UHGV virus genome: UHGV-0247313
Source: a virus
Strand: one strand, 5' to 3'
Length of the DNA stretch: 10,162 nucleotides
In this document: piece after piece, positions 1 through 10,162 of the stretch
How positions within the stretch are numbered: position 1 is the first letter of the stretch
Layout of the letters: each line of letters starts with the position of its first letter
The notes under the pieces: generated by a model
What the model saw: only the letters and a program-made list of their open reading frames with translations
Databases searched by the model: none
What the model was told of the DNA's origin: nothing
Position numbers and translations under genes: made by a program

Positions 1-241
1 TGATGGCATCGGGCTGGTTATCCCGCAGCCACAGCAAAACCGGGGCCATCAGCAGATTCTGGTCGCCGCTGAAATCCTCAATCACCGCGTTCAGGGTGTA
101 ACGGTACTCCCACGACATGGAGCTGGCCCCCGTGGCAACCAGCGAACCGTTATCCACAAACAGATGCAGTTTGTCCGGGTTATTGCGGACATAAGGCACC
201 GCTTTATTGAGGGCGTGGCGCAGGGATTGTGGTTTGTTCAC
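1..241 (-). CDS. R: Tail completion protein gpR-like, 5' part only (runs off the left edge)
   Basis: Minus-strand frame open from a GTG at 241..239, preceded by AGGAG 7 nt upstream, to position 1. Translation VNKPQSLRHALNKAVPYVRNNPDKLHLFVDNGSLVATGASS...LLWLRDNQPDAI resembles P2 gpR as I recall it. It overlaps the lysC 3' end, as in P2. Not in the ORF track because it has no stop in the window. Confidence 0.6.
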   Translation of the reverse strand, partial: MNKPQSLRHALNKAVPYVRNNPDKLHLFVDNGSLVATGASSMSWEYRYTLNAVIEDFSGDQNLLMAPVLLWLRDNQPDAI

Positions 242-494
242 TGTTTCGCTCCTGACACGCAATAATCATGTCCACTTTGTCTGCACAGACCGCCCAGGCG
301 GCCTCCGTTTCATCCAGCAACGCGTTCAGATCACCGTTAGTGCGCGGCGTTGCCTGATCCAGCCGACACGGCGTCACTCGCGGACAACCACTGACGGTAA
401 GCTGTACCTCCGGTGAGTGCCGGACGTTCCCGCAGCCGGATAATGTCAGCAGGCAAAGGAGTATCAGCCCAGCGGCGTAAATCCTCGTTCTCAC
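204..494 (-). CDS. lysC: o-spanin (Rz1-like outer-membrane lipoprotein), LysC-like
   Basis: 96 aa with a lipoprotein signal and lipobox (LLTLSGC). Starts inside lysB in another frame, the typical spanin arrangement. Confidence 0.8.
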   Translation of the reverse strand: MRTRIYAAGLILLCLLTLSGCGNVRHSPEVQLTVSGCPRVTPCRLDQATPRTNGDLNALLDETEAAWAVCADKVDMIIACQERNSEQTTIPAPRPQ

Positions 495-765
495 GTTTCA
501 GTTCCTCGATCCGGTGTTGTCGTTGTCTCAGCAGTGCACTGGTCTGTTCTGCTTCGGCATAGAGCCGCGCCTGCTCCCGGTTATTGGTTTCAGTCAGAAT
601 GGACAGGCTGATAAGCTGGCTGTTTTTCTTCGTCAGTTCCTGCGCTTTACTTTTCAGCGCCGCGCGCTGCGTTTCGATGGTGTGGCTGGCGCTGTTAAGC
701 CGCCACGACTGCCAGCCCAGCGCAACGAGTGCCAGCGCCACCACTACTGCCAGCGCACGCGTCAT
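337..765 (-). CDS. lysB: i-spanin (Rz-like), LysB-like
   Basis: 142 aa with an N-terminal transmembrane helix (ALAVVVALALVALGW) and a charged coiled-coil-like remainder. AAGGAG lies 8 nt upstream of the ATG at 765. Contains the embedded lysC. Confidence 0.8.
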   Translation of the reverse strand: MTRALAVVVALALVALGWQSWRLNSASHTIETQRAALKSKAQELTKKNSQLISLSILTETNNREQARLYAEAEQTSALLRQRQHRIEELKRENEDLRRWADTPLPADIIRLRERPALTGGTAYRQWLSASDAVSAGSGNAAH

Positions 766-925
766 AGTCCAGCTCCTTTAAGGCACCAGGCCATCTCCCG
801 CGCACGGCGGTTATCCAGCCCCTGATTAAACACACCTTTTACATAAACCCAGCGCGGCAACTGTCGGCACGCATCTGCCCAGCGCCGCTGATTGAGCAAT
901 TTCACCAGTGTGGAACTACAGGCAT
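766..925 (-). pseudogene. 3' remnant of an upstream lysis-module gene (lysA position), left by a deletion
   Basis: A minus-strand frame stays open through ...RRWADACRQLPRWVYVKGVFNQGLDNRRAREMAWCLKELDY* and stops 1 nt past the lysB start. It has no plausible start and abuts the O 3' end. Confidence 0.3.
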
Positions 926-1654
926 TGCCCGTTGCTGCTTCTGCAGAGCAGACTCCAGTTCAGACAGGCGTTCTTCCTGCTCAGACAGAGATTTTTCGGT
1001 TCGCGCGCTCAGGTTTTGCTGCTCAGTGGCGACCAGCTCCACGGCCTTATGCACATCAGAGAACCGGGCGTCATCGGACTGCTCTTTTTTGGTGAACAGC
1101 GCCGTGACGCGGGAAAACAGGGACGGTTTGTCGTCCTGGACTTCCTCCAGTTCGATCACCGTTTCCTCTGCAGCGGTAAAGAGATTGGCAGGATTCTGCT
1201 TGCGGTTTGCCAGCGGGTTATGGGCTGCACTGGCGCTGAATGTCAGCATTTCAGTGCCCAGACTGGCAGGGTCATCAGTGGCAGCCAGGCCGACCAGGTA
1301 GGCTTTGCCCGTATCAGCGAACTTCGGGCTGACTTCCATAGAGGTGAATAATTTCTGGCCTTTTTTCACCAGTTCCACCAGGGACTCCGTTGGCTCAACG
1401 TCGGCATACAGCGCCATCTTGCCTGCCAGCGGACCTTCCGTGATTTCCTCAGCAAACAGCGCCGTCACCTTGCCGTAGCGGTTAAAGGTGCTGTCCGGCA
1501 GATAAGACTTGATGTGCTCAAGGTTAATCAGCGCGGTATACACCGCCGGGTTGTAGCTGGCTGCCATCTGTTCCAGCCATTCACGCTGGATTTCGCGTCC
1601 GTCGGTGGTGGCACCTTCCACCCCGATGCGAAAACGCTTTGCTTTCACTGTCAT
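902..1654 (-). CDS. O: Capsid scaffolding protein gpO-like, probably 3'-truncated with a junction-derived C-terminus
   Basis: 250 aa. FRIGVEGATTDGREI...INLEHI...YLVGLAATDDPASLGTE...SDDARFSDVHKAVE matches the P2 gpO family. GGAG lies 8 nt upstream of the ATG. Shorter than P2 gpO as I recall it (about 284 aa); the last residues (RAMPVVPHW) look junction-derived. Confidence 0.85.
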   Translation of the reverse strand: MTVKAKRFRIGVEGATTDGREIQREWLEQMAASYNPAVYTALINLEHIKSYLPDSTFNRYGKVTALFAEEITEGPLAGKMALYADVEPTESLVELVKKGQKLFTSMEVSPKFADTGKAYLVGLAATDDPASLGTEMLTFSASAAHNPLANRKQNPANLFTAAEETVIELEEVQDDKPSLFSRVTALFTKKEQSDDARFSDVHKAVELVATEQQNLSARTEKSLSEQEERLSELESALQKQQRAMPVVPHW

Positions 1655-1732
1655 GAGCCGTGCTCCGTTAAAAAAAACTTACTGGAGCCTTATGGTTGCG
1701 GTGATGGGGGTAGTGAAACAATGCGCGGTATT

Positions 1733-1750
1733 TGTACCGACAACCACACA
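1733..1750. promoter_or_regulatory. Candidate Ogr/Delta-type late-activator site (TGT-N12-ACA) in the divergent O/P late promoter region
   Basis: TGTaccgacaaccacACA in the 142-bp O-P intergenic region. P2 late promoters carry TGT-N12-ACA dyads centred near -55. Confidence 0.4.
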
Positions 1751-1796
1751 AACCGCAGGCGGGGAAAGCCTTCATTCAAGGCTGTAGGTTTGTGCC

Positions 1797-3563
1797 ATGA
1801 ACACCACACTGACACCCGCAGATCTCGATCCCCGTCGGCAGGCCATGCTGCTGTACTTTCAGGGATACCGCGTAGCCCGCATTGCTGAAATGCTGGGCGA
1901 GAAAGTTGCAACCGTTCACAGCTGGAAAAAACGCGACAAGTGGGGTGACTATGGGCCGCTGGATCAGATGCAGCTCACCACCGCCGCACGCTACTGCCAG
2001 CTCATTATGAAGGAGCACAAAGAAGGGAAAGATTTCAAAGAGATTGACCTGCTGGCGCGCCAGTCGGAGCGCCATGCGCGGATCGGCAAGTTTAACAATG
2101 GCGGCAACGAAGCCGACTTAAACCCTAACGTCGCCAACCGCAACAAAGGCCCGCGTCGTCAGCCGGAAAAGAACGTTTTCACCGATGAACAGATTGAGAA
2201 GCTGGAAGAAATCTTCCATTCCTCCATGTTCAACTACCAGCGCCACTGGTGGGAAGCCGGAAAAACCAACCGCATCCGCAACCTGCTGAAGTCACGCCAG
2301 ATCGGCGCGACCTTCTATTTTGCCCGTGAAGCCCTGATTGACGCCCTGCTAACCGGGCGTAACCAGATTTTCCTTTCCGCCAGCAAGGCACAGGCCCACG
2401 TCTTTAAGCAGTACATCATCGACTTCGCCAAAGAAGTGGAGGTGGAGCTGAAAGGCGATCCGATAGTGCTTCCTAACGGGGCCACGCTGTACTTCCTCGG
2501 CACCAATGCCCGCACGGCCCAGAGTTACCACGGCAACCTGTATCTGGATGAATATTTCTGGATACCGAAATTCCAAGAGCTGCGCAAAGTGGCTTCCGGT
2601 ATGGCTATTCACAAAAAATGGCGACAAACCTATTTTTCCACGCCATCCAGCCTGACACACAGTGCTTATCCGTTCTGGTCCGGTGCGCTGTTCAACCGTG
2701 GGCGCAACAAAGCCGACAAGGTGGACATCGACCTGTCCCACAGCAATCTGGCCCCCGGCCTGCTGTGCACAGACGGGCAATACCGCCAGATAGTCACCGT
2801 GGAAGATGCGGTGCGCGGCGGCTGTAACCTGTTCGACCTCGACCAGCTACGCATGGAGTACAGCCCGGACGAATACCAGAACCTGCTGATGTGCGAGTTC
2901 GTGGACGATCTCGCGTCCGTGTTCCCGCTCAGCGAGCTGCAAGCGTGCATGGTGGACAGTTGGGAAATCTGGACCGACTTTCATGCACTGGCCCTGCGCC
3001 CGTTTGGCTGGCGCGAAGTGTGGATCGGTTATGACCCGGCAAAAGGTACGCAGAACGGCGACAGTGCCGGATGCGTGGTGGTGGCACCGCCAGCCGTGCC
3101 GGGTGGTAAGTTCCGCATTCTTGAGCGTCACCAGTGGCGCGGGATGGACTTCCGCGCCCAGGCTGACGCCATCAAAAAACTGACCGAGCAGTACAACGTG
3201 ACCTACATCGGCATCGACTCGACAGGTGTCGGCCACGGGGTTTACGAGAACGTGAAAGCGTTTTTTCCAGCCGTCCGGGAGTTTGTCTACAACCCCAACG
3301 TTAAAAACGCCCTGGTACTCAAGGCCTACGACATTATCAGTCACCGTCGTCTGGAGTTTGACGCCGGACACACCGACATAGCGCAGTCATTTATGGCAAT
3401 CCGTCGCGCCACCACCGCCAGCGGCAACCGCCCAACCTATGAAGCCAGCCGCAGCGAAGAAGCCAGCCATGCCGATCTGGCCTGGGCAACAATGCACGCA
3501 CTGTTTAACGAACCGCTGCAGGGCGAGTCCGCCAATACCAGCAATATTGTGGAGATTTTTTGA
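1797..3563 (+). CDS. P: Terminase large (ATPase) subunit gpP-like
   Basis: 588 aa, the size and family of P2 gpP. Divergent from O. Its stop overlaps the portal start (TGATG). Confidence 0.9.
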   Translation: MNTTLTPADLDPRRQAMLLYFQGYRVARIAEMLGEKVATVHSWKKRDKWGDYGPLDQMQLTTAARYCQLIMKEHKEGKDFKEIDLLARQSERHARIGKFNNGGNEADLNPNVANRNKGPRRQPEKNVFTDEQIEKLEEIFHSSMFNYQRHWWEAGKTNRIRNLLKSRQIGATFYFAREALIDALLTGRNQIFLSASKAQAHVFKQYIIDFAKEVEVELKGDPIVLPNGATLYFLGTNARTAQSYHGNLYLDEYFWIPKFQELRKVASGMAIHKKWRQTYFSTPSSLTHSAYPFWSGALFNRGRNKADKVDIDLSHSNLAPGLLCTDGQYRQIVTVEDAVRGGCNLFDLDQLRMEYSPDEYQNLLMCEFVDDLASVFPLSELQACMVDSWEIWTDFHALALRPFGWREVWIGYDPAKGTQNGDSAGCVVVAPPAVPGGKFRILERHQWRGMDFRAQADAIKKLTEQYNVTYIGIDSTGVGHGVYENVKAFFPAVREFVYNPNVKNALVLKAYDIISHRRLEFDAGHTDIAQSFMAIRRATTASGNRPTYEASRSEEASHADLAWATMHALFNEPLQGESANTSNIVEIF

Positions 3564-3979
3564 TGGGAAAGAGTAAGAAAAACCGCGCTGCGGCGACGAA
3601 CCAGATCCAGCATAAAAACCAAACTTCAGCCGAAGCATTCAGCTTCGGTGATCCCGTTCCTGTTCTGGACCGCCGCGAATTACTGGACTATGTGGAATGC
3701 GTAAAGATGGACCGCTGGTATGAGCCACCCGTAAGTTTTGACGGACTGGCGCGAACATTCCGCGCCGCCGTACACCACAGTTCACCGATTGCAGTAAAGT
3801 GCAACATTCTGACCAGCACCTACATCCCTCACCCGCTGCTCAGCCAGCAGGCGTTTTCACGTTTTGTGCAGGACTATCTGGTTTTTGGTAACGCCTACCT
3901 GGAGAAACGCACGAACCGATTCGGTGAAGTTATCGCCCTTGAGCCTGCGCTGGCAAAATACACCCGACGCGGATTAGAC

Positions 3980-4030
3980 GAACAGCGTGGCGGACTCGTT
4001 GAGCAGGGCGGATGGGATGGCAGAAAGATA
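3980..4030. repeat. Inverted-repeat arm, exact reverse complement of 4161..4211 (51 bp)
   Basis: Base-by-base comparison. A further 9-bp pair is 3971..3979 ggattagac and 4151..4159 gtctaatcc. Confidence 0.95.
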
Positions 4031-4160
4031 GCCGGGCAGGCCGTAGATCTCCTGGTTGATGTCCGGTTCCATCAGATGAAAAATGCTGCCTTTCGTGAAC
4101 TGATACGGCTGCGTGGTCATGCCGTATTGCACAAACCAGTAGGTATCTAGGTCTAATCCC

Positions 4161-4211
4161 TATCTTTCTGCCATCCCATCCGCCCTGCTCAACGAGTCCG
4201 CCACGCTGTTC
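4161..4211. repeat. Inverted-repeat arm in native orientation, partner of 3980..4030
   Basis: Encodes in-frame native portal sequence YLSAIPSALLNESATLF. Confidence 0.95.
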
Positions 4212-4657
4212 CGCCGAAAGTATTACATTAACGGTAGTCATGCAGGCTTCATCATGTACATGACCGATGCCGCGCAGAACCAGGAAGATGTGAACAACCT
4301 CCGCAATGCGATGAAAAGTGCCAAAGGCCCTGGCAACTTCCGCAACCTGTTTATGTACTCGCCTAATGGTAAAAAAGACGGACTTCAGATTATCCCGTTG
4401 TCAGAAGTCACAGCGAAGGATGAGTTTCTGAATATCAAGAACGTGAGCCGTGATGACATGATGGCGGCACACCGCGTGCCGCCGCAAATGATGGGAATTA
4501 TGCCTAATAATGTCGGGGGGTTTGGGGATGTGGAGAAGGCTAGCAAGGTATTCGTAAGAAACGAATTGATGCCCCTGCAGAAACGATTGCAGGAACTAAA
4601 TAACTGGTTGGACGAAGAAGTGCTCAATTTTTCAACCTATGAGCTTTAGTTTTAAAA

Positions 4658-4685
4658 CGAAGACCATTAGGTCTTCGCTTTATTT
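4658..4685. terminator. Bidirectional intrinsic terminator between convergent Q and the retron RT gene
   Basis: 8-bp stem cgaagacc/ggtcttcg with loop atta. T-rich tracts on both sides (ctttattt on plus; ttttaaa on minus). The RT stop codon sits in the loop. Confidence 0.6.
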
Positions 4686-5629
4686 AAAGGGTTCTTTCCA
4701 TATTTTTTTTCTAATTTGCTAATATAAGTTATTAATCTCCTATGGCTTTTTGAATCCACACTTAAAATAAATGACAACCATCCCCTAACGTGTTCTATCT
4801 CAGAAGACTTACCGCAAAATATATGATGTATCTTTGCTCTAATTTCTTTATATTTTTCTCTACCTATCCCAACTTTCTCTTGTGAAATAACTAAACCTGT
4901 AACTTTCCTCTGACTACGAGGCCCACTAATACAAGTTTTTTTTGAGTTAATAACCAATCCTTCACTTGGGATTATAGAAAATAAAAAATCACGTGCTTTA
5001 ACAACCTTTTTCATAGACTGTGCAGATAAGGTGAGATCATCGGCATATCTCGTATATATCAAGCCCCGACTACCTGCATAACCCTGAATACGATAATCAA
5101 GTTTAGAACATATTAGATTAGCTAATTTAGGTGATGATGGAGCACCTTGTGGTAGCAGATTTTTATAACAACATATTTTTGTCAAAACTGAAGATATTAG
5201 TCGATTATAACCAAGAGAATGGAACACTCCAAAAACTTTGTTAGCAGTTAAACTTGGGAAAAAATCCTCCAAATCAATATTCAGTATAAAGTTTGCCCCA
5301 ATATGCGGGGTAGCATTATTCAAAATAGATTGGTGCTTTTCAAATCCAATAGAAAAAGGAGATGACGACAGTTTATCTAAAATGTTACGTAGAACCCATC
5401 CTTGTAAGGCTTTAAGTTCTCGAGAAGGTTGGTAAATGGTTCTCATTCTCTTCTCTGGGCCTTTCTTTTCTACAGTGTAGATCCTATAGCGAAAATCAGC
5501 TGTATAGATTAACAACCGAAGTGTTTCAACAGATATGCGAGTCGCCTTAGACATGTCATGCAAATTGTTCATGACAGGTAGGCCGAGATTTCTCAATCTA
5601 AAAGTGTTCAAATATTCAGCGGATTTCAT
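4667..5629 (-). CDS. ret: Retron reverse transcriptase, Retron-Eco1 (Ec86)-type
   Basis: 320 aa with RT motifs: NIDLEDFFPS (motif A), LPQGAPSSPKLANL (motif B), YADD (motif C). Directly downstream of the msr-msd element. AT-rich unlike the flanking phage genes. Confidence 0.95.
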   Translation of the reverse strand: MKSAEYLNTFRLRNLGLPVMNNLHDMSKATRISVETLRLLIYTADFRYRIYTVEKKGPEKRMRTIYQPSRELKALQGWVLRNILDKLSSSPFSIGFEKHQSILNNATPHIGANFILNIDLEDFFPSLTANKVFGVFHSLGYNRLISSVLTKICCYKNLLPQGAPSSPKLANLICSKLDYRIQGYAGSRGLIYTRYADDLTLSAQSMKKVVKARDFLFSIIPSEGLVINSKKTCISGPRSQRKVTGLVISQEKVGIGREKYKEIRAKIHHIFCGKSSEIEHVRGWLSFILSVDSKSHRRLITYISKLEKKYGKNPLNKAKT

Positions 5630-5635
5630 GAAAGT

Positions 5636-5804
5636 TGCGCACCCTTACGTCAGAAAAAACGGGTTTCCTGGTTGGCTCGGAGAGCATCAGGCGATGCTCT
5701 CCGTTCCAACAAGGAAAACAGACAGTAACTCAGATTCAATGCAGGATGCCGAAACAACATCCAGAGGTTGACCTTAATGATAAACCTCTCGCTAAGGGTG
5801 CGCA
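5636..5804 (-). ncRNA. msr-msd: Retron msr-msd non-coding RNA (msDNA template), Ec86-type
   Basis: Flanked by 12-bp inverted repeats: tgcgcaccctta at 5636..5647 and taagggtgcgca at 5793..5804. Internal 10-bp perfect msd stem ggagagcatc/gatgctctcc at 5679..5702. Lies immediately upstream of the RT start. Matches the Ec86 msr-msd as I recall it. Confidence 0.85.
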
Positions 5805-6715
5805 TACGGAATCTTATCATAGTTAAATGTTGATTTTCTACGGTTTTCAAAATTCATAATCTCAAGCCGCAATCGGTCAAGTGTCTTTCTATCAAAGACG
5901 CTCCTAACATAGCTAGCCCCCAAAGCAGTGACCTGATAACCATCAGTCATTTGAAGTATTTTTCGTTCATTTATTAGACGAGAAACAACGGATCTAACAA
6001 TAATTTTAGATAAAACATCATCTTGCTTTATCGCTTTAAAAGCTAGTTCACACAGTGTGCGGTAGTTGACACTATCCAGTAAATAGATACAAGGCAATAG
6101 AAACCGCTCTGCGTATAATATATTTCCAATATCTTTTGATACTTTATTTTCTTTCCTAACCTTCTTAATAGATGCCATTAATTTTTTATATAATCGTAAT
6201 TTTCTGGCAACATCAATAGATGAATCACACATTTCTTTTAGTTCATTTGAACTACAACGCAAAACAGATTTTGAATTAAACTTACGCAACAGGCGAACAG
6301 GACCATAGTTAATAAAGCTACGTTTTGATTTAAATTTTGCATCTTGAATGCAAATCAACTTTCTCCTTAAGTTTTCATTATTAGAGAACGCACCAAGCTC
6401 TGTGAAAGACCCCGGACTTTCAGGAAATAAAATTATTACATCGACAGCTTCAGCCAGAATATTTTCTAAACTTAAAAGGCTATGCTGCCCTTGACCAGCC
6501 AAAAGATCATCAAATAGATCTTCTGGATAAAATATATCAACATCACTGAACTTTGCTAAAAATTGTGATAATTGATGACGCCAAGATTGATGATTAGCAA
6601 CGTCACCACCACATAGAAAAATGGTTATTTTAATATTAGCTCCTCGATAGAAGCCTTTCTTTGTGAGATGTCCTATAAGCTGTTGTTGCTGCTCATCGGT
6701 AAATTTTTTATTCAT
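5792..6715 (-). CDS. Retron effector: nucleoside deoxyribosyltransferase-like (NDT-like) N-terminal domain with a C-terminal putative DNA-binding domain
   Basis: 307 aa. N-terminal Rossmann-like motifs (ITIFLCGGD; VIILFPESPGSFTELGA). Upstream of and overlapping the msr a1 repeat. Same AT-rich composition as the RT gene. Confidence 0.8.
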   Translation of the reverse strand: MNKKFTDEQQQQLIGHLTKKGFYRGANIKITIFLCGGDVANHQSWRHQLSQFLAKFSDVDIFYPEDLFDDLLAGQGQHSLLSLENILAEAVDVIILFPESPGSFTELGAFSNNENLRRKLICIQDAKFKSKRSFINYGPVRLLRKFNSKSVLRCSSNELKEMCDSSIDVARKLRLYKKLMASIKKVRKENKVSKDIGNILYAERFLLPCIYLLDSVNYRTLCELAFKAIKQDDVLSKIIVRSVVSRLINERKILQMTDGYQVTALGASYVRSVFDRKTLDRLRLEIMNFENRRKSTFNYDKIPYAHP

Positions 6716-7187
6716 AATCTCCCCGCTTTTTTTTCTACTTTATACATCAAGTTATGAATAGATCCAATCTCCATACCACATGGCGCGCGCTCGTATCCCC
6801 GCCACGCCTGCCCGCTTTATGCAGTGGTTTTCATGCACATGCATAACATGAGCAAAAGCCCGCCAGTTCTGGCGGATCTGAGCAAAGACGATCCTCAATC
6901 GATCATGCGATTTCATGCAGCATAGTCATGCACTGTCAAGGAAGTGAAAATCCGTATCTGAATGGCCACTTGAAAAACGGATCATACGGGTTTACAAAGA
7001 TGAATGTTCGCTGTGAACGGGAAGCGGAAGTTAACTTTCAGATAACATAATCCATATGCACGAGAACCTCTAAAATAGAATGGGACACCTAAGCGGGGTA
7101 CTTACAACGATTCTTTCCATATTCACAGTTAACACTCTGTTTGGCGTATTTTTATTCAAATAGCAAACACCAATAAAAGGAGTTTCC

Positions 7188-7523
7188 ATGAACAATATTC
7201 CCCCTATACCACAGTTAGGAATTTATGTCTCAAAAATCGATCCCACCCTACGTATCACTGTAACCGATGTTGATATTGTTGATGGTGAGGATGATTCTCC
7301 TGATGATGAATTGTTTTATTTAGTCCACTGGATCGAGGGGGAAGATGAAAGTGATATGACAGCAATGGGATTTGAGCTAGACCCAGTAGAGTGGCAGGCT
7401 TTCGTTGAATCTGAGCAATTAGTGTTTGAGCGTGATCCGTACATGGATTCAATCCCCGAAAATTCAAACTTGGCAAAGATTCGGGATTTTCTCATGAAGA
7501 CTAAACAGAATGATCATTCGTAA
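7188..7523 (+). CDS. Hypothetical small, strongly acidic protein (111 aa)
   Basis: AAGGAG lies 7 nt upstream of the ATG. About 26 Asp+Glu against about 8 Lys+Arg by manual count. No family recognised. Confidence 0.6.
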   Translation: MNNIPPIPQLGIYVSKIDPTLRITVTDVDIVDGEDDSPDDELFYLVHWIEGEDESDMTAMGFELDPVEWQAFVESEQLVFERDPYMDSIPENSNLAKIRDFLMKTKQNDHS

Positions 7524-7677
7524 GTGTAAGCATCCATCAGGAAAATGGTTTTGTAAGTGAATCATCAACTTTTAGAGAGTCTCAGACACTCCCACTTCTG
7601 CTTCTGACACAAAGCGGACGATCACTTATCAAAATAACCGCCCACCTTACGCCTTATTTCACTCATTGCCCAAACTA

Positions 7678-7707
7678 GCCCCCATCAGAATGAATCCTCC
7701 TGGGGGC
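7678..7707. terminator. Possible weak hairpin terminator downstream of the DinI-like gene
   Basis: 7-bp stem gccccca/tgggggc with a 16-nt loop. Weak T-tracts on both sides. Confidence 0.2.
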
Positions 7708-7715
7708 AACATTTC

Positions 7716-7949
7716 TTAATGCAGCCAGCTGTCGTCCTCCCACACCTTCTGCATAATTTTCATCACTTGTTTTCTTTCTTCATCCAGTTGCAGTCCGGTT
7801 AGTTCCACACCGTTAGAGCTACCTTTGCGAATGCGAATTACCGTTTTGGGATACAGGGGGCGCAGATTGCGGTAAAGCTCGGATTCAAGGGCGTCCAGGG
7901 TAGACTGGCTAATCTTCTGCTCTTTATCGATCATTATTTCAATGCGCAT
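7716..7949 (-). CDS. dinI: DinI-like protein (SOS-response family)
   Basis: Start chosen at the internal ATG 7949..7947, preceded by AGGTGA with a 5-nt spacer. MRIEIMIDKEQKISQSTLDALESELYRNL...QKVWEDDSWLH has DinI family length and pattern. The track ORF 7716..8021 is a spurious 5' extension. Confidence 0.8.
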   Translation of the reverse strand: MRIEIMIDKEQKISQSTLDALESELYRNLRPLYPKTVIRIRKGSSNGVELTGLQLDEERKQVMKIMQKVWEDDSWLH

Positions 7950-7959
7950 AAAAGTCACC

Positions 7960-8148
7960 TCAGCTGATGACATCCATTGAGCGGTTGTATTCGTGGCTTC
8001 TGATTTTTGCCATGAGTTCATCAGTCAATTCAGAAACCCACTGCAGAGCCAGCCCCTTCTCTTCATCACTACACTCACTAGCCGCTACAAGCTTAAGAAA
8101 AAAATCAATGCGCTGGAGCTTCAAAGACTCCAAAAAATAGTCCTGCAT
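7960..8148 (-). CDS. Hypothetical 62-aa protein, first gene of the LexA-box operon
   Basis: AGGAGG lies 4 nt upstream of the ATG. Its stop overlaps the dinI-like RBS, suggesting coupling. No family recognised. Confidence 0.5.
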   Translation of the reverse strand: MQDYFLESLKLQRIDFFLKLVAASECSDEEKGLALQWVSELTDELMAKIRSHEYNRSMDVIS

Positions 8149-8188
8149 CTTTCCTCCTATGACACCAAAACAATACTGTATACATAAC

Positions 8189-8208
8189 CACTGTTTATAT
8201 TTACAGTA
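8189..8208. promoter_or_regulatory. LexA box (SOS operator) upstream of orf62 and the DinI-like gene
   Basis: caCTGTttatatttACAGta fits the CTGT-N8-ACAG consensus with an AT-rich spacer, about 40 bp upstream of the orf62 start. A second half-site tactgtata lies at 8174..8182. Confidence 0.65.
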
Positions 8209-8300
8209 TATAATAATCTTACTGATGTAAAACGTTTTTTTACGTTCATCGGCCTGATATGCCTGGTATTATTAAGAGCACGAATTGTCAACCCGCGTAA

Positions 8301-9746
8301 TTAATACAGGTTCCGCCACTTATCATCTTCCTTCAGACGCTGGTTCCGATAGAAGATACGCAGGCCTGCTCCTGACGGAATACTGCCGCCGCGAAGGAGC
8401 AAATCGACTTCTTTCTCGCTGCCATCAAATCCCCTGGACTTCAGTTCATAGACGAGCTGCTGTCGCTGATGGTCTGTAATTCGCTGTTTGTAGTCTTTAC
8501 GCCGTTTCGGTTTCACCTGGCGTAACCTTGCAGCCAGTTCCCGGCGCTCTTTTTTGCTCATACTGTGCAGGTAATTGTGCAACTCCTTGTCATTCATACG
8601 GGTAATATCCGTTCTGGAGTCCCCATCAGCTGATTTGTCTTTCCCTTGTTGGTTCAAATTTTCAGCAAGGGGACAGTTATTGCCACGAGTCCAAGGGGCG
8701 CAAGCGCCCTGGTCGGCTGCCGCCTCCTGAACGTCAACGGCCTTACGAACCATTTTCCACTTCACCGCATGAGTGCAGATCTTGCCCTCTGCAATGGGTG
8801 ACCAGATGCCATAAATACGAATACCGTGATCGCCATATGCGGTCGGTTCTTCGTTGATTTCATAAGCAGTTCTGATGAGGTGATATTTGCGGGGAACCAG
8901 TACGCCGCCCTGCTTCATGATGTAGGTGGCAAAACAACCAGCATCAGCAGCAGCCAGGATTGCATCAAGACGCGGGTTATCCAGTACCGGCGCACCTGCT
9001 TTTTTGTCACCCTGTTGCCTTGCCGCCTGACCAGCCAGCAATCGCAGTTCACGGTAAGCCTGACGCCCCGGAATGCCAAAGAAGCGGAATTGCTGAACAC
9101 GATGCAGAGACGCCCAGGCATTAACGTATTCAGCGTTATCACGCAGGGATTTACCCGTTTCCTTGCTGATCTCCCCAGCCAGACCACGCCCGTCAATGTT
9201 CTTACTGATGTATTTCGCGATATAGCTTGTTGGCGTACCTTTGCGCGGGTTTATCAGCTCAGACTTAAAGCGTGGTCCCGTGTTATTGCCCAGCTCCTCG
9301 CGGTCTTCACGGATGGCAAACTTACGCAGTAATGCAGTGATGGCGCGGCGGTCTTTTTTACGCATGAAACACATGAGATGCCAGTGCACAGTACCGTCAT
9401 GATGCGGCTCAGCTACCGCACCTGCAGCAACACGCCCGATCTCTGCGGTTGCACTCATGACGTAATGTGGCAGTTTCTCTTTTGCCACCTCATTAATCGG
9501 TACGCATGGCAGGCAGTGAATCTGAGCCAGAAAACCATCTACCAGCGTTGAATCTTCAGTCAGATCGGTAAGCAGCCAGATTTCTGGTGCGGTTAATAAA
9601 TGAGGTTGCGCTGGGTTCAACTTGTTCCGCAGAATCTGCACATTCATGCCAGCACGTTCTGCCAGTTGCACCAGGTTGTGGCGCAATGCGAATGCACGAC
9701 AGGCTTCATCAAAATGTGGATGTTTGGAAACTTGGTAATCAAACAT
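8301..9746 (-). CDS. A: In-frame fusion: CII-like regulator N-terminus (about 110 aa) joined to a P2 gpA-like rolling-circle replication nickase C-terminal region
   Basis: N-terminus [25 protein letters not shown]...[29 protein letters not shown] matches the phage CII (186 CII/CP76-like) family. It then switches to [15 protein letters not shown] (HUH motif) and [12 protein letters not shown] (paired catalytic tyrosines). The HUH motif sits near residue 120 here; in P2 gpA as I recall it sits far further in. Start taken at ATG 9746, as in the plus-strand copy at 10087. Confidence 0.75.
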
Positions 9747-9805
9747 GGTCAATGCCTCTGATGTATTTCAGAATCGAACTAATTAAGGTTTAGATTGCAT
9801 TCTGA
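9671..9805. repeat. Left arm of a 135-bp perfect inverted repeat (partner 10028..10162)
   Basis: Exact reverse-complement match over the full length, limited by the window end. Holds the cII-like start, the intergenic region and the last 9 codons of the 73-aa ORF. Confidence 0.95.
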
Positions 9806-9832
9806 TCATCATTAAACGAGGAATGTTGCATC

Positions 9833-10054
9833 ATGAGACCTAACATTTCAATCACTCTTACCACCCCTCATGTGACTATTGAACGCTATAGCGAGCTGAC
9901 AGGGCTATCCATCGATACCATCAATGACATGTTGGCTGATGGACGCCTTATCCGTCACCGACTGCGCAAAGATAAAAAACGCGAAAAAGTGATGATCAAC
10001 ATAGCAGCAATGACCGTTGATGCGCTTTCAGAATGCAATCTAAACCTTAATTAG
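9833..10054 (+). CDS. Small helix-turn-helix DNA-binding regulator (Apl/Cox-like?)
   Basis: 73 aa with an HTH-like segment ([23 protein letters not shown]) and a basic tail. Sits directly upstream of the plus-strand cII-like start, as apl/cox precedes cII/B in 186/P2-type early operons. Confidence 0.45.
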
Positions 10055-10162
10055 TTCGATTCTGAAATACATCAGAGGCATTGACCATGTTTGATTACCA
10101 AGTTTCCAAACATCCACATTTTGATGAAGCCTGTCGTGCATTCGCATTGCGCCACAACCTGG
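10028..10162. repeat. Right arm of the 135-bp inverted repeat (partner 9671..9805)
   Basis: Reverse complement of 9671..9805. It may extend past the window end. Confidence 0.95.
10087..10162 (+). CDS. CII-like regulator, 5' end only (second, plus-strand copy; runs off the right edge)
   Basis: ATG at 10087 with AGAGG upstream. [25 protein letters not shown] is identical to the N-terminus of the minus-strand fusion gene. Confidence 0.65.

What the first reader, a model, noticed from the sequence alone, without database searches (positions are those of the whole stretch)
3971..4211. Portal gene broken by an inverted duplication with a template-switch signature
Writing the native order as x-Y-Z (x = 3971..3979, Z = 4161..4211), the window reads x, rc(Z), rc(Y), rc(x), one base c, Z. 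So 3980..4159 is an inverted copy of the 180-bp native stretch x-Y-Z, and x and Z are each also present once in direct orientation. Simple inversion between repeats cannot produce this; two replication template switches (fold-back) can. An assembly artifact from chimeric reads is the alternative. Either way Q is split into two fragments.
Basis: seen in the sequence. Interest (0 to 1): 0.6.

Follow-up and report, generated by a model that had tools for sequence, protein, structure and literature searches.

The report
Copy-back rearrangement breaking BL21 prophage portal
A 180-base piece of a phage portal gene in ordinary E. coli BL21 prophage DNA is flipped and its two ends are duplicated, but the flip occurs in no other searched sequence and a second flip of the same kind lies 5.6 kb away, so it is most likely a chimeric or edited sequence and not a biological feature.

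Summary
The pattern is real. Window 3980-4159 is the exact reverse complement of 180 native bases (x 9 nt, Y 119 nt, Z 52 nt). x (3971-3979) and Z (4160-4211) are also kept in direct orientation, for a net gain of 61 bp.

Undoing the flip restores, base for base, the 341-aa portal gene of the defective P2-like prophage of E. coli BL21(DE3), the prophage that carries retron Ec86. In the window the gene is split into a 195-aa fragment (139 native residues) and a 131-aa fragment.

The mechanism is not shown:
- The junctions share 0 and 0 nt of microhomology.
- The native sequence has no inverted repeat there.
- No complete E. coli genome or any other collection searched carries the junctions or their chimeric ORFs.
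- A second copy-back junction of the same kind sits at 9805/9806 and runs to the window end.
- Everything else is 100.000% BL21(DE3).

Two such events with no substitutions in 10 kb point to a chimeric, misjoined or edited sequence (about 0.6) over an inherited mutation (about 0.3). Either way the prophage was already dead. Interest is low.

The parts
1797..3563 (+). Terminase ATPase (large) subunit gene, intact, immediately upstream of the portal gene (1-nt overlap)
   Evidence: ORF of 588 aa. Equals REL606 WP_001098413.1 'terminase ATPase subunit family protein'.
3563..3979 (+). Native 5' part of the portal gene, codons 1-139. It ends with x.
   Evidence: 100% identical to BL21(DE3). 139 native residues precede the divergence.
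3971..3979 (+). x, direct copy (GGATTAGAC), portal codons 137-139
3980..4159 (-). Inverted block: exact reverse complement of native x-Y-Z (180 nt, portal codons 137-196)
   Evidence: rc starts with x and ends with Z. (maps inverted to L002 12394-12573, 100%).
3980..4031 (-). rc(Z), left arm of the 52-nt perfect inverted repeat
   Evidence: pair I1
4151..4159 (-). rc(x), right arm of the 9-nt inverted repeat
   Evidence: pair I7
4160..4211 (+). Z, direct copy (52 nt). Native reading resumes here at the third base of codon 179.
4212..4649 (+). Native 3' part of the portal gene (codons 197-341 plus stop). The first start codon in frame is ATG 4254, giving a 131-aa fragment (residues 211-341).
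   Evidence: Pfam Phage_portal PF04860, 38.4 bits against a cut-off of 39.1.
3563..4150 (+). Truncated portal ORF as it now reads: 139 native residues, 56 residues read from the inverted block, then a stop
   Evidence: This product is absent from the 153-billion gene index and the 15-billion protein set.
9671..9805 (+). Direct arm of a second copy-back event (135 nt). The junction lies at 9805|9806.
   Evidence: pair I1
9806..10162 (-). Second inverted block. After native position 9744 the sequence jumps 222 nt ahead and reads backwards to the window end. Its last 135 nt (10028-10162) are the inverted arm.
   Evidence: window 9805-10162 = L002 6577-6934 in the opposite orientation, 100%. (1 nt of microhomology). 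The native continuation is seen in Logan contig L003.

Best explanation
The window is DNA of the E. coli BL21(DE3) lineage: the defective P2-like prophage that carries retron Ec86. At 3971-4211 the sequence follows the portal gene to codon 139. It then continues with the reverse complement of codons 137-196 and resumes forward at codon 179. This is a switch-and-return ('copy-back') join, type 3-1-4-2 of the four-point model.

I think these joins most likely do not exist in a living chromosome. They were probably introduced into the sequenced or assembled molecule or into the record: a chimeric amplified or library molecule, pieces joined in the wrong orientation, or an edited or simulated sequence. 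Because the junctions share no homology, cut-and-paste joining fits better than polymerase mispriming.

Shown: the structure, the ancestral state, its uniqueness, and the second junction. Inferred: that it is an artefact.
For: (1) Apart from two inverted blocks, the whole window is 100.000% identical to BL21(DE3) NC_012971.2, with 0 mismatches in about 10 kb.
(2) There are two events of the same geometry. One has junctions 3979|3980 and 4159|4160. The other is at 9805|9806, 5.6 kb away, and runs into the window end. Two rare complex events and no substitutions in 10 kb is not what spontaneous mutation gives. A density of about 1 per 5 kb is within the range reported for chimeric amplified DNA (1 per 22 kb of reads in PMC1855051).
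(3) The jump distances of 171, 128 and 222 nt match the 80-300 nt range reported for inverted MDA chimeras (PMC9984789).
(4) None of 5,426 complete E. coli genomes, including 46 records at 99% identity or more (the listed ones are B/BL21-lineage strains plus one 'strain C' record), has either junction. Best coverage is 84% in two pieces, and no record covers 80% or more of 9300-10162.
(5) The 30-mers spanning junctions J1 and J3 are absent from GTDB species genomes, IMG/VR and JGI metagenomes.
(6) The chimeric ORF products are absent from the 153-billion gene index and the 15-billion protein set.
(7) Logan contigs that carry the 131-aa fragment have the native upstream sequence.
(8) Microhomology is 0, 0 and 1 nt. 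Random blunt joins give fewer than 2 nt in 84% of cases.
Against: No reads are available, so nothing shows directly that the joins are absent from real DNA. The junctions are clean and the geometry is one that replication can produce. The most familiar in-vitro source, phi29/MDA mispriming, leaves 2 nt or more of complementarity in 93.5% of inverted chimeras less than 10 kb apart (PMC1855051). Three junctions with 0, 0 and 1 nt fit it badly (about 3e-4), which leaves the less specific options of misjoining or editing. The source could not be found in any collection searched, so I cannot check its library type or assembler. The disrupted gene lies in a dead prophage, so a real mutation there would be neutral and could persist.
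Confidence: 0.6

Rival explanations
1. It is a genuine heritable mutation in a BL21-derived strain. During replication the nascent 3' end left its template after portal codon 139. It copied 180 nt of the opposite strand from 171 nt ahead back to 8 nt behind the exit point, then returned 128 nt ahead (type 3-1-4-2). The junction at 9805 is either a second such event or part of one multi-switch (MMBIR/FoSTeS-like) episode.
For: The geometry fits exactly. This event type is documented, though it is the rarest at 1% of events and is usually tens of bp long (PMC5453318). The prophage already lacks head genes and part of gpA, so loss of the portal costs nothing. A 52-bp inverted repeat with a 128-bp spacer is tolerated in E. 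coli (my own knowledge). Clustered breakpoints are typical of serial template switching (background in PMC5453318).
Against: There is 0, 0 and 1 nt of microhomology at three junctions and no native quasi-palindrome to prime a switch. Two complex events occur with zero substitutions in 10 kb. The junctions are absent from the complete genomes carrying this prophage at 99% identity or more and from all other collections. A 180-nt copied tract is far longer than the classic E. coli quasipalindrome events.
Confidence: 0.3
2. It is a real inversion made by two staggered double-strand breaks, with overhangs of 9 nt and 52 nt. The overhangs were filled in and the 180-bp middle piece was re-joined blunt in the opposite orientation. 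This automatically duplicates both flanks in inverted orientation.
For: This model predicts exactly x + rc(xYZ) + Z with blunt junctions that share no homology, as observed. The model is established for Drosophila inversions flanked by inverted duplications (my own knowledge, Ranz et al. 2007, not checked here).
Against: E. coli has no Ku/LigD end-joining, and its alternative end-joining is rare and resection-prone (my own knowledge). A 52-nt stagger is unusual. The model has to be invoked twice in 10 kb. No transposase or IS end lies at the breakpoints.
Confidence: 0.05
3. It is a programmed or recombinase-mediated inversion (invertase switch, shufflon, or recombination between inverted repeats) within the portal gene.
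For: None beyond the presence of an inverted segment.
Against: The native sequence has no inverted repeat of 8 nt or more at the breakpoints. The product gains 61 bp, which conservative recombination cannot do. Relatives at 90-100% identity all show the native order. The flip destroys the ORF.
Confidence: 0.01

Closest known systems
Four-point-model template-switch mutation, type '3-1-4-2' (Löytynoja & Goldman 2017, PMC5453318)
   Same: The product is F1 + reverse-complement fragment (2->3) + F3. The switch points are ordered 3 (3971) < 1 (3979) < 4 (4099) < 2 (4150). This creates two new inverted repeats around an inverted spacer.
   Different: The copied tract is 180 nt, against tens of nt in the described cases. 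The setting is a bacterial lab strain. There is no evidence that the event happened in vivo, and a second event lies 5.6 kb away.
Inverted chimeras of multiple displacement amplification (Lasken & Stockwell 2007, PMC1855051; review PMC9984789)
   Same: Local strand inversion with a jump of 128-222 nt (the reported preference is 80-300 nt). Several junctions occur per about 10 kb in otherwise perfect template sequence. E. coli lab-strain DNA is a classic template or contaminant (the last point is my own knowledge).
   Different: 93.5% of such chimeras show 2 nt or more of priming complementarity, with a peak at 5-8 nt. Here the values are 0, 0 and 1 nt. The inverted tract is very short (180 nt) before the return.
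Quasipalindrome-associated template-switch mutagenesis in E. coli (Ripley; Dutra & Lovett; PMC7202029)
   Same: A strand switch that copies the complementary strand and creates a perfect inverted repeat.
   Different: That process needs a pre-existing imperfect inverted repeat and changes a few bases. No such repeat exists here and 180 nt were copied.
Inversions flanked by inverted duplications from staggered breaks (Drosophila; my own knowledge)
   Same: Identical end product: an inverted segment with each flank duplicated in inverted orientation and blunt junctions.
   Different: A eukaryotic NHEJ context and kb-to-Mb scale. E. coli lacks canonical NHEJ.
P2 gpQ portal gene of the E. coli B P2-like defective prophage (WP_000520360.1)
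   Same: The restored sequence is 100% identical over 1026 bp / 341 aa.
   Different: In the window the gene is interrupted after codon 139.

Membership tests
Four-point template-switch event, type 3-1-4-2 | The derived sequence equals the ancestral prefix, plus the reverse complement of a nearby ancestral fragment, plus the ancestral suffix, with no other changes | tested here: met
   all three pieces are 100% identical to BL21(DE3).
Four-point template-switch event, type 3-1-4-2 | Switch-point order 3 < 1 < 4 < 2, giving two new inverted repeats that flank an inverted spacer | tested here: met
   The points are 3971, 3979, 4099 and 4150. The repeats are 9 and 52 nt. Definition from PMC5453318.
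Four-point template-switch event, type 3-1-4-2 | The event arose by replication in a living lineage (present in genomic DNA, heritable) | not testable with these tools
   No reads and no source record. No other genome shares it.
MDA / strand-displacement inverted chimera | Two segments joined in opposite orientation from less than 10 kb apart, with a typical distance of 80-300 nt | tested here: met
   The jumps are 171, 128 and 222 nt. Reference values.
MDA / strand-displacement inverted chimera | Priming complementarity of 2 nt or more at the junction (93.5% of proximal inverted chimeras) | tested here: not met
   0, 0 and 1 nt.
MDA / strand-displacement inverted chimera | The source DNA was amplified with a strand-displacing polymerase | not testable with these tools
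   The provenance of the window could not be found.
Quasipalindrome template-switch mutation | A pre-existing imperfect inverted repeat at the site | tested here: not met
   The native sequence 3900-4250 has no inverted repeat of 8 nt or more except a palindrome at 4191-4202, away from the breakpoints.
Inversion by recombination between inverted repeats or a site-specific invertase | Ancestral inverted repeats or recombination sites at both ends, and a conservative product with no length change | tested here: not met
   No ancestral repeats. The product is 61 bp longer.
P2-type phage portal protein (gpQ, Pfam PF04860) | An intact ORF homologous to portal proteins, next to the terminase large subunit gene | tested here: not met
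   Synteny with the terminase gene and 100% identity of the restored gene are met. The ORF in the window is broken. Only the 131-aa C-terminal fragment hits PF04860, at 38.4 bits against a cut-off of 39.1.

The most novel reading that the evidence does not exclude
The joins are real and arose in vivo. A BL21-derived cell underwent clustered strand switch-and-return events of 180 nt or more that used no homology, either as two events or as one multi-switch episode, within 6 kb of its retron-bearing prophage. That would be a bacterial example of long '3-1-4-2' template-switch mutation without priming microhomology. A far less likely cause is copy-back synthesis by the neighbouring retron reverse transcriptase.
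Probability: 0.2. Interest if true: 0.4.

Novelty: not a real feature. Interest (0 to 1): 0.1.

Why it matters
It matters little biologically. The prophage in E. coli B/BL21 already lacks its capsid, small-terminase and holin genes, and in BL21 part of gpA as well. Breaking the portal gene therefore changes nothing for the cell or the phage.

The practical value is quality control. Local inverted joins in otherwise perfect BL21 sequence flag a chimeric, misassembled or edited record, and the portal 'pseudogene' should not be interpreted as prophage decay.

If reads proved the joins real, they would be a neat but minor bacterial example of a long template-switch mutation that uses no homology.

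Tried and rejected
1. Provenance hunt. Exact look-ups of the three chimeric ORF products found nothing. Scans with the junction 30-mers of GTDB genomes, IMG/VR and JGI metagenomes found nothing.

2. The 131-aa C-terminal fragment is on record in 40 blocks of Logan contigs. On alignment, all ten contigs retrieved are truncations at a contig start or carry the native upstream sequence. They give no independent support.

3. Codon-phase idea. Three of the four portal breakpoints fall on codon boundaries, and the inverted block is exactly 60 codons. I first noted this as suspicious, but P(3 or more of 4) = 0.11, so I do not use it.

4. No motif common to the breakpoints was apparent by eye in the sequence contexts (IS ends, recombinase sites or palindromes). 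No motif search was run.

5. ODIRA / inverted-triplication model. Rejected because Y is present once only, inverted, and is not triplicated.

6. An Rfam scan for a retron msr RNA or any other RNA near the site found nothing at gathering score and only chance-level hits at E < 1.

7. Phage and plasmid collections hold only relatives at 90-95% identity, all in the native order.

Full report
**What the window is.**
BLAST against complete E. coli genomes puts the window in the P2-like prophage of the E. coli B lineage, with 100% hits to BL21(DE3), REL606, C41/C43 and the NEB B strains. The annotated regions of REL606 and BL21(DE3) give this gene order in window coordinates:
- lysC/lysB (204-765, minus strand);
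- a lysozyme remnant fused to a shortened gpO scaffold gene (762-1654, minus);
- terminase ATPase subunit (1797-3563, plus);
- portal (from 3563, plus);
- retron reverse transcriptase (4667-5629, minus) and its effector (5792-6715, minus);
- a hypothetical gene, a DinI-like gene, and a truncated replication endonuclease fused to a truncated CII-family gene (8301-9746, minus).

The window shares the BL21-specific gpA-CII deletion that REL606 lacks, so it is BL21-lineage DNA. Against NC_012971.2 it has no mismatch anywhere. The only differences are two inverted blocks.

**The observation.**
The repeat finder reports perfect inverted arms 3980-4031 / 4160-4211 (52 nt) and 3971-3979 / 4151-4159 (9 nt). 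The reverse complement of 3980-4159 begins with x and ends with Z. The three pieces map to BL21(DE3) as follows:

| Window | BL21(DE3) locus L002 | Orientation | Identity |
|---|---|---|---|
| 1-3979 | 16543-12565 | forward | 100% |
| 3980-4159 | 12394-12573 | inverted | 100% |
| 4160-9805 | 12445-6800 | forward | 100% |

The window is therefore A-x-rc(xYZ)-Z-B where the ancestor is A-x-Y-Z-B. Y is inverted but not duplicated. x and Z are each duplicated in inverted orientation, for a net gain of 61 bp.

Replacing 3971-4211 by the native 180 bp reproduces the annotated 341-aa portal exactly. As it stands, the gene gives a 195-aa product (139 native residues plus 56 read from the inverted block) and a possible 131-aa C-terminal fragment starting at residue 211. 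Only the C-terminal fragment still resembles Pfam Phage_portal, at 38.4 bits, just under the 39.1 cut-off.

**Geometry and mechanism.**
In native coordinates the path runs forward to 3979, then on the reverse strand from 4150 back to 3971, then forward from 4099. The switch-point order is 3 < 1 < 4 < 2. [quoted passage not shown]

Recombination between repeats cannot yield this structure, because there are no ancestral inverted repeats of 8 nt or more at the breakpoints and the product is longer. Two strand switches can yield it.

The nucleotide-level signature of a primed switch is missing, however. Donor and acceptor share 0 nt at 3979|3980 and 0 nt at 4159|4160. A blunt, staggered-break inversion would give the same product, but E. 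coli lacks canonical end-joining (my own knowledge).

**A second event the finding did not mention.**
At 9805|9806 the sequence again leaves the native path. After native position 9744 it jumps 222 nt ahead and reads backwards for 357 nt to the last base of the window. This creates inverted arms 9671-9805 / 10028-10162 (135 nt, cut by the window end). Microhomology there is 1 nt. A native Logan contig (L003) shows the uninterrupted sequence at this point. The window thus carries two copy-back events 5.6 kb apart and not one base substitution.

**Is it anywhere else?**
No.
- Among 5,426 complete E. coli genomes the best match to 3560-4660 covers 84% in two pieces, which is the native order. This holds for all 46 records at 99% identity or more.
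- No record covers 80% or more of 9300-10162.
- Phage and plasmid relatives at 90-95% identity have the native order.
- Junction 30-mers are absent from GTDB species genomes, IMG/VR and JGI metagenomes.
- The chimeric ORF products are absent from the 153-billion gene index and the 15-billion protein collection.
- Contigs that carry the 131-aa fragment as a called gene are contig-start truncations with native upstream sequence.

**Weighing the explanations.**
Two rare complex rearrangements with zero substitutions in 10 kb of the most-sequenced lab strain is not the pattern of spontaneous mutation. It is the pattern of a process that makes local inverted joins at a rate of about one per several kb.

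The best-known such process is chimera formation by strand-displacing polymerases:
- 85% of MDA chimeras are inverted, are mostly intramolecular, and occur about once per 22 kb of reads (PMC1855051).
- Their jump distances peak at 80-300 nt (PMC9984789). The jumps here are 171, 128 and 222 nt.
- Against it, 93.5% of proximal inverted MDA chimeras show 2 nt or more of complementarity. Values of 0, 0 and 1 nt would then have a probability near 3e-4, whereas random blunt joins give fewer than 2 nt in 84% of cases.

The junction data therefore favour homology-independent joining over any polymerase mispriming, in vitro or in vivo. Candidates are pieces abutted in the wrong orientation during assembly or finishing, or an edited or simulated record.

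I cannot tell these sub-options apart without reads or provenance. I give about 0.6 to "not an inherited allele", about 0.3 to a real replication-based event (possibly one multi-switch episode), about 0.05 to a staggered-break inversion, and essentially nothing to programmed inversion.

An apparent coincidence of breakpoints with codon boundaries (3 of 4; the block is exactly 60 codons) has P about 0.11 and carries no weight.

**Consequence and novelty.**
The prophage was already non-functional in the ancestor. The region between gpO and the lysozyme remnant, which in P2 holds the capsid, small-terminase, head-completion and holin genes (P2 gene order from my own knowledge), is missing, and in BL21 gpA and CII are truncated. 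Splitting the portal gene is therefore neutral.

If real, the event is a known kind of mutation, unusual only in tract length and in its lack of microhomology. If an artefact, it is a quality flag on the record. Interest is low either way.

Noticed in passing
window 9671-10162 (junction 9805|9806): A second copy-back junction of the same geometry as the finding. The sequence jumps 222 nt ahead and reads backwards to the window end, giving perfect 135-nt inverted arms 9671-9805 / 10028-10162 that are cut by the window end. Microhomology is 1 nt. It truncates one copy of a 73-aa ORF, and a complete inverted copy of that ORF sits at 9833-10054 (+). It is absent from all complete E. coli genomes and all contig collections searched.
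   Followed up: yes
window 4667-6715 (-): A complete type II-A retron lies immediately downstream of the portal gene. The RT is 4667-5629 (PADLOC RT_II-A, 424 bits) and the NDT-like effector is 5792-6715 (NDT_II-A, 314 bits). The intergenic region 5630-5791 folds into a long stem-loop, with its hairpin core at about 5664-5717. From memory this sequence matches the msd of retron Ec86 (Eco1) of E. coli B. Rfam has no model that hits it.
   Followed up: partly
window 762-1654 (-): The prophage is already defective in the ancestor. A 250-aa gpO scaffold ORF overlaps a lysozyme remnant annotated as 'missing N-terminus'. The P2 head, small-terminase and holin genes that normally lie between them are deleted. 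The same is true of REL606 and BL21(DE3).
   Followed up: partly
window ~9416-9470: A deletion not present in REL606 fuses a truncated replication endonuclease (gpA) gene to a truncated CII-family gene. The BL21-lineage records listed run contiguously across this point, whereas REL606 keeps intact gpA and diverges from the window at about 9418-9421. This assigns the window to the BL21 branch.
   Followed up: partly
window ~4244-4254; loci L003-L006, L008, L009: Six independent Logan (SRA) contigs start within 10 nt of window 4252, just upstream of ATG 4254 inside the portal gene. This suggests a repeat boundary shared with another P2-like prophage in those samples, which breaks de Bruijn assemblies at that point.
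   Followed up: no
window 3971-4159: The inverted block is exactly 60 portal codons (137-196) and x is exactly codons 137-139, so three of the four breakpoints fall on codon boundaries. P(3 or more of 4) = 0.11, so this is probably chance.
   Followed up: yes
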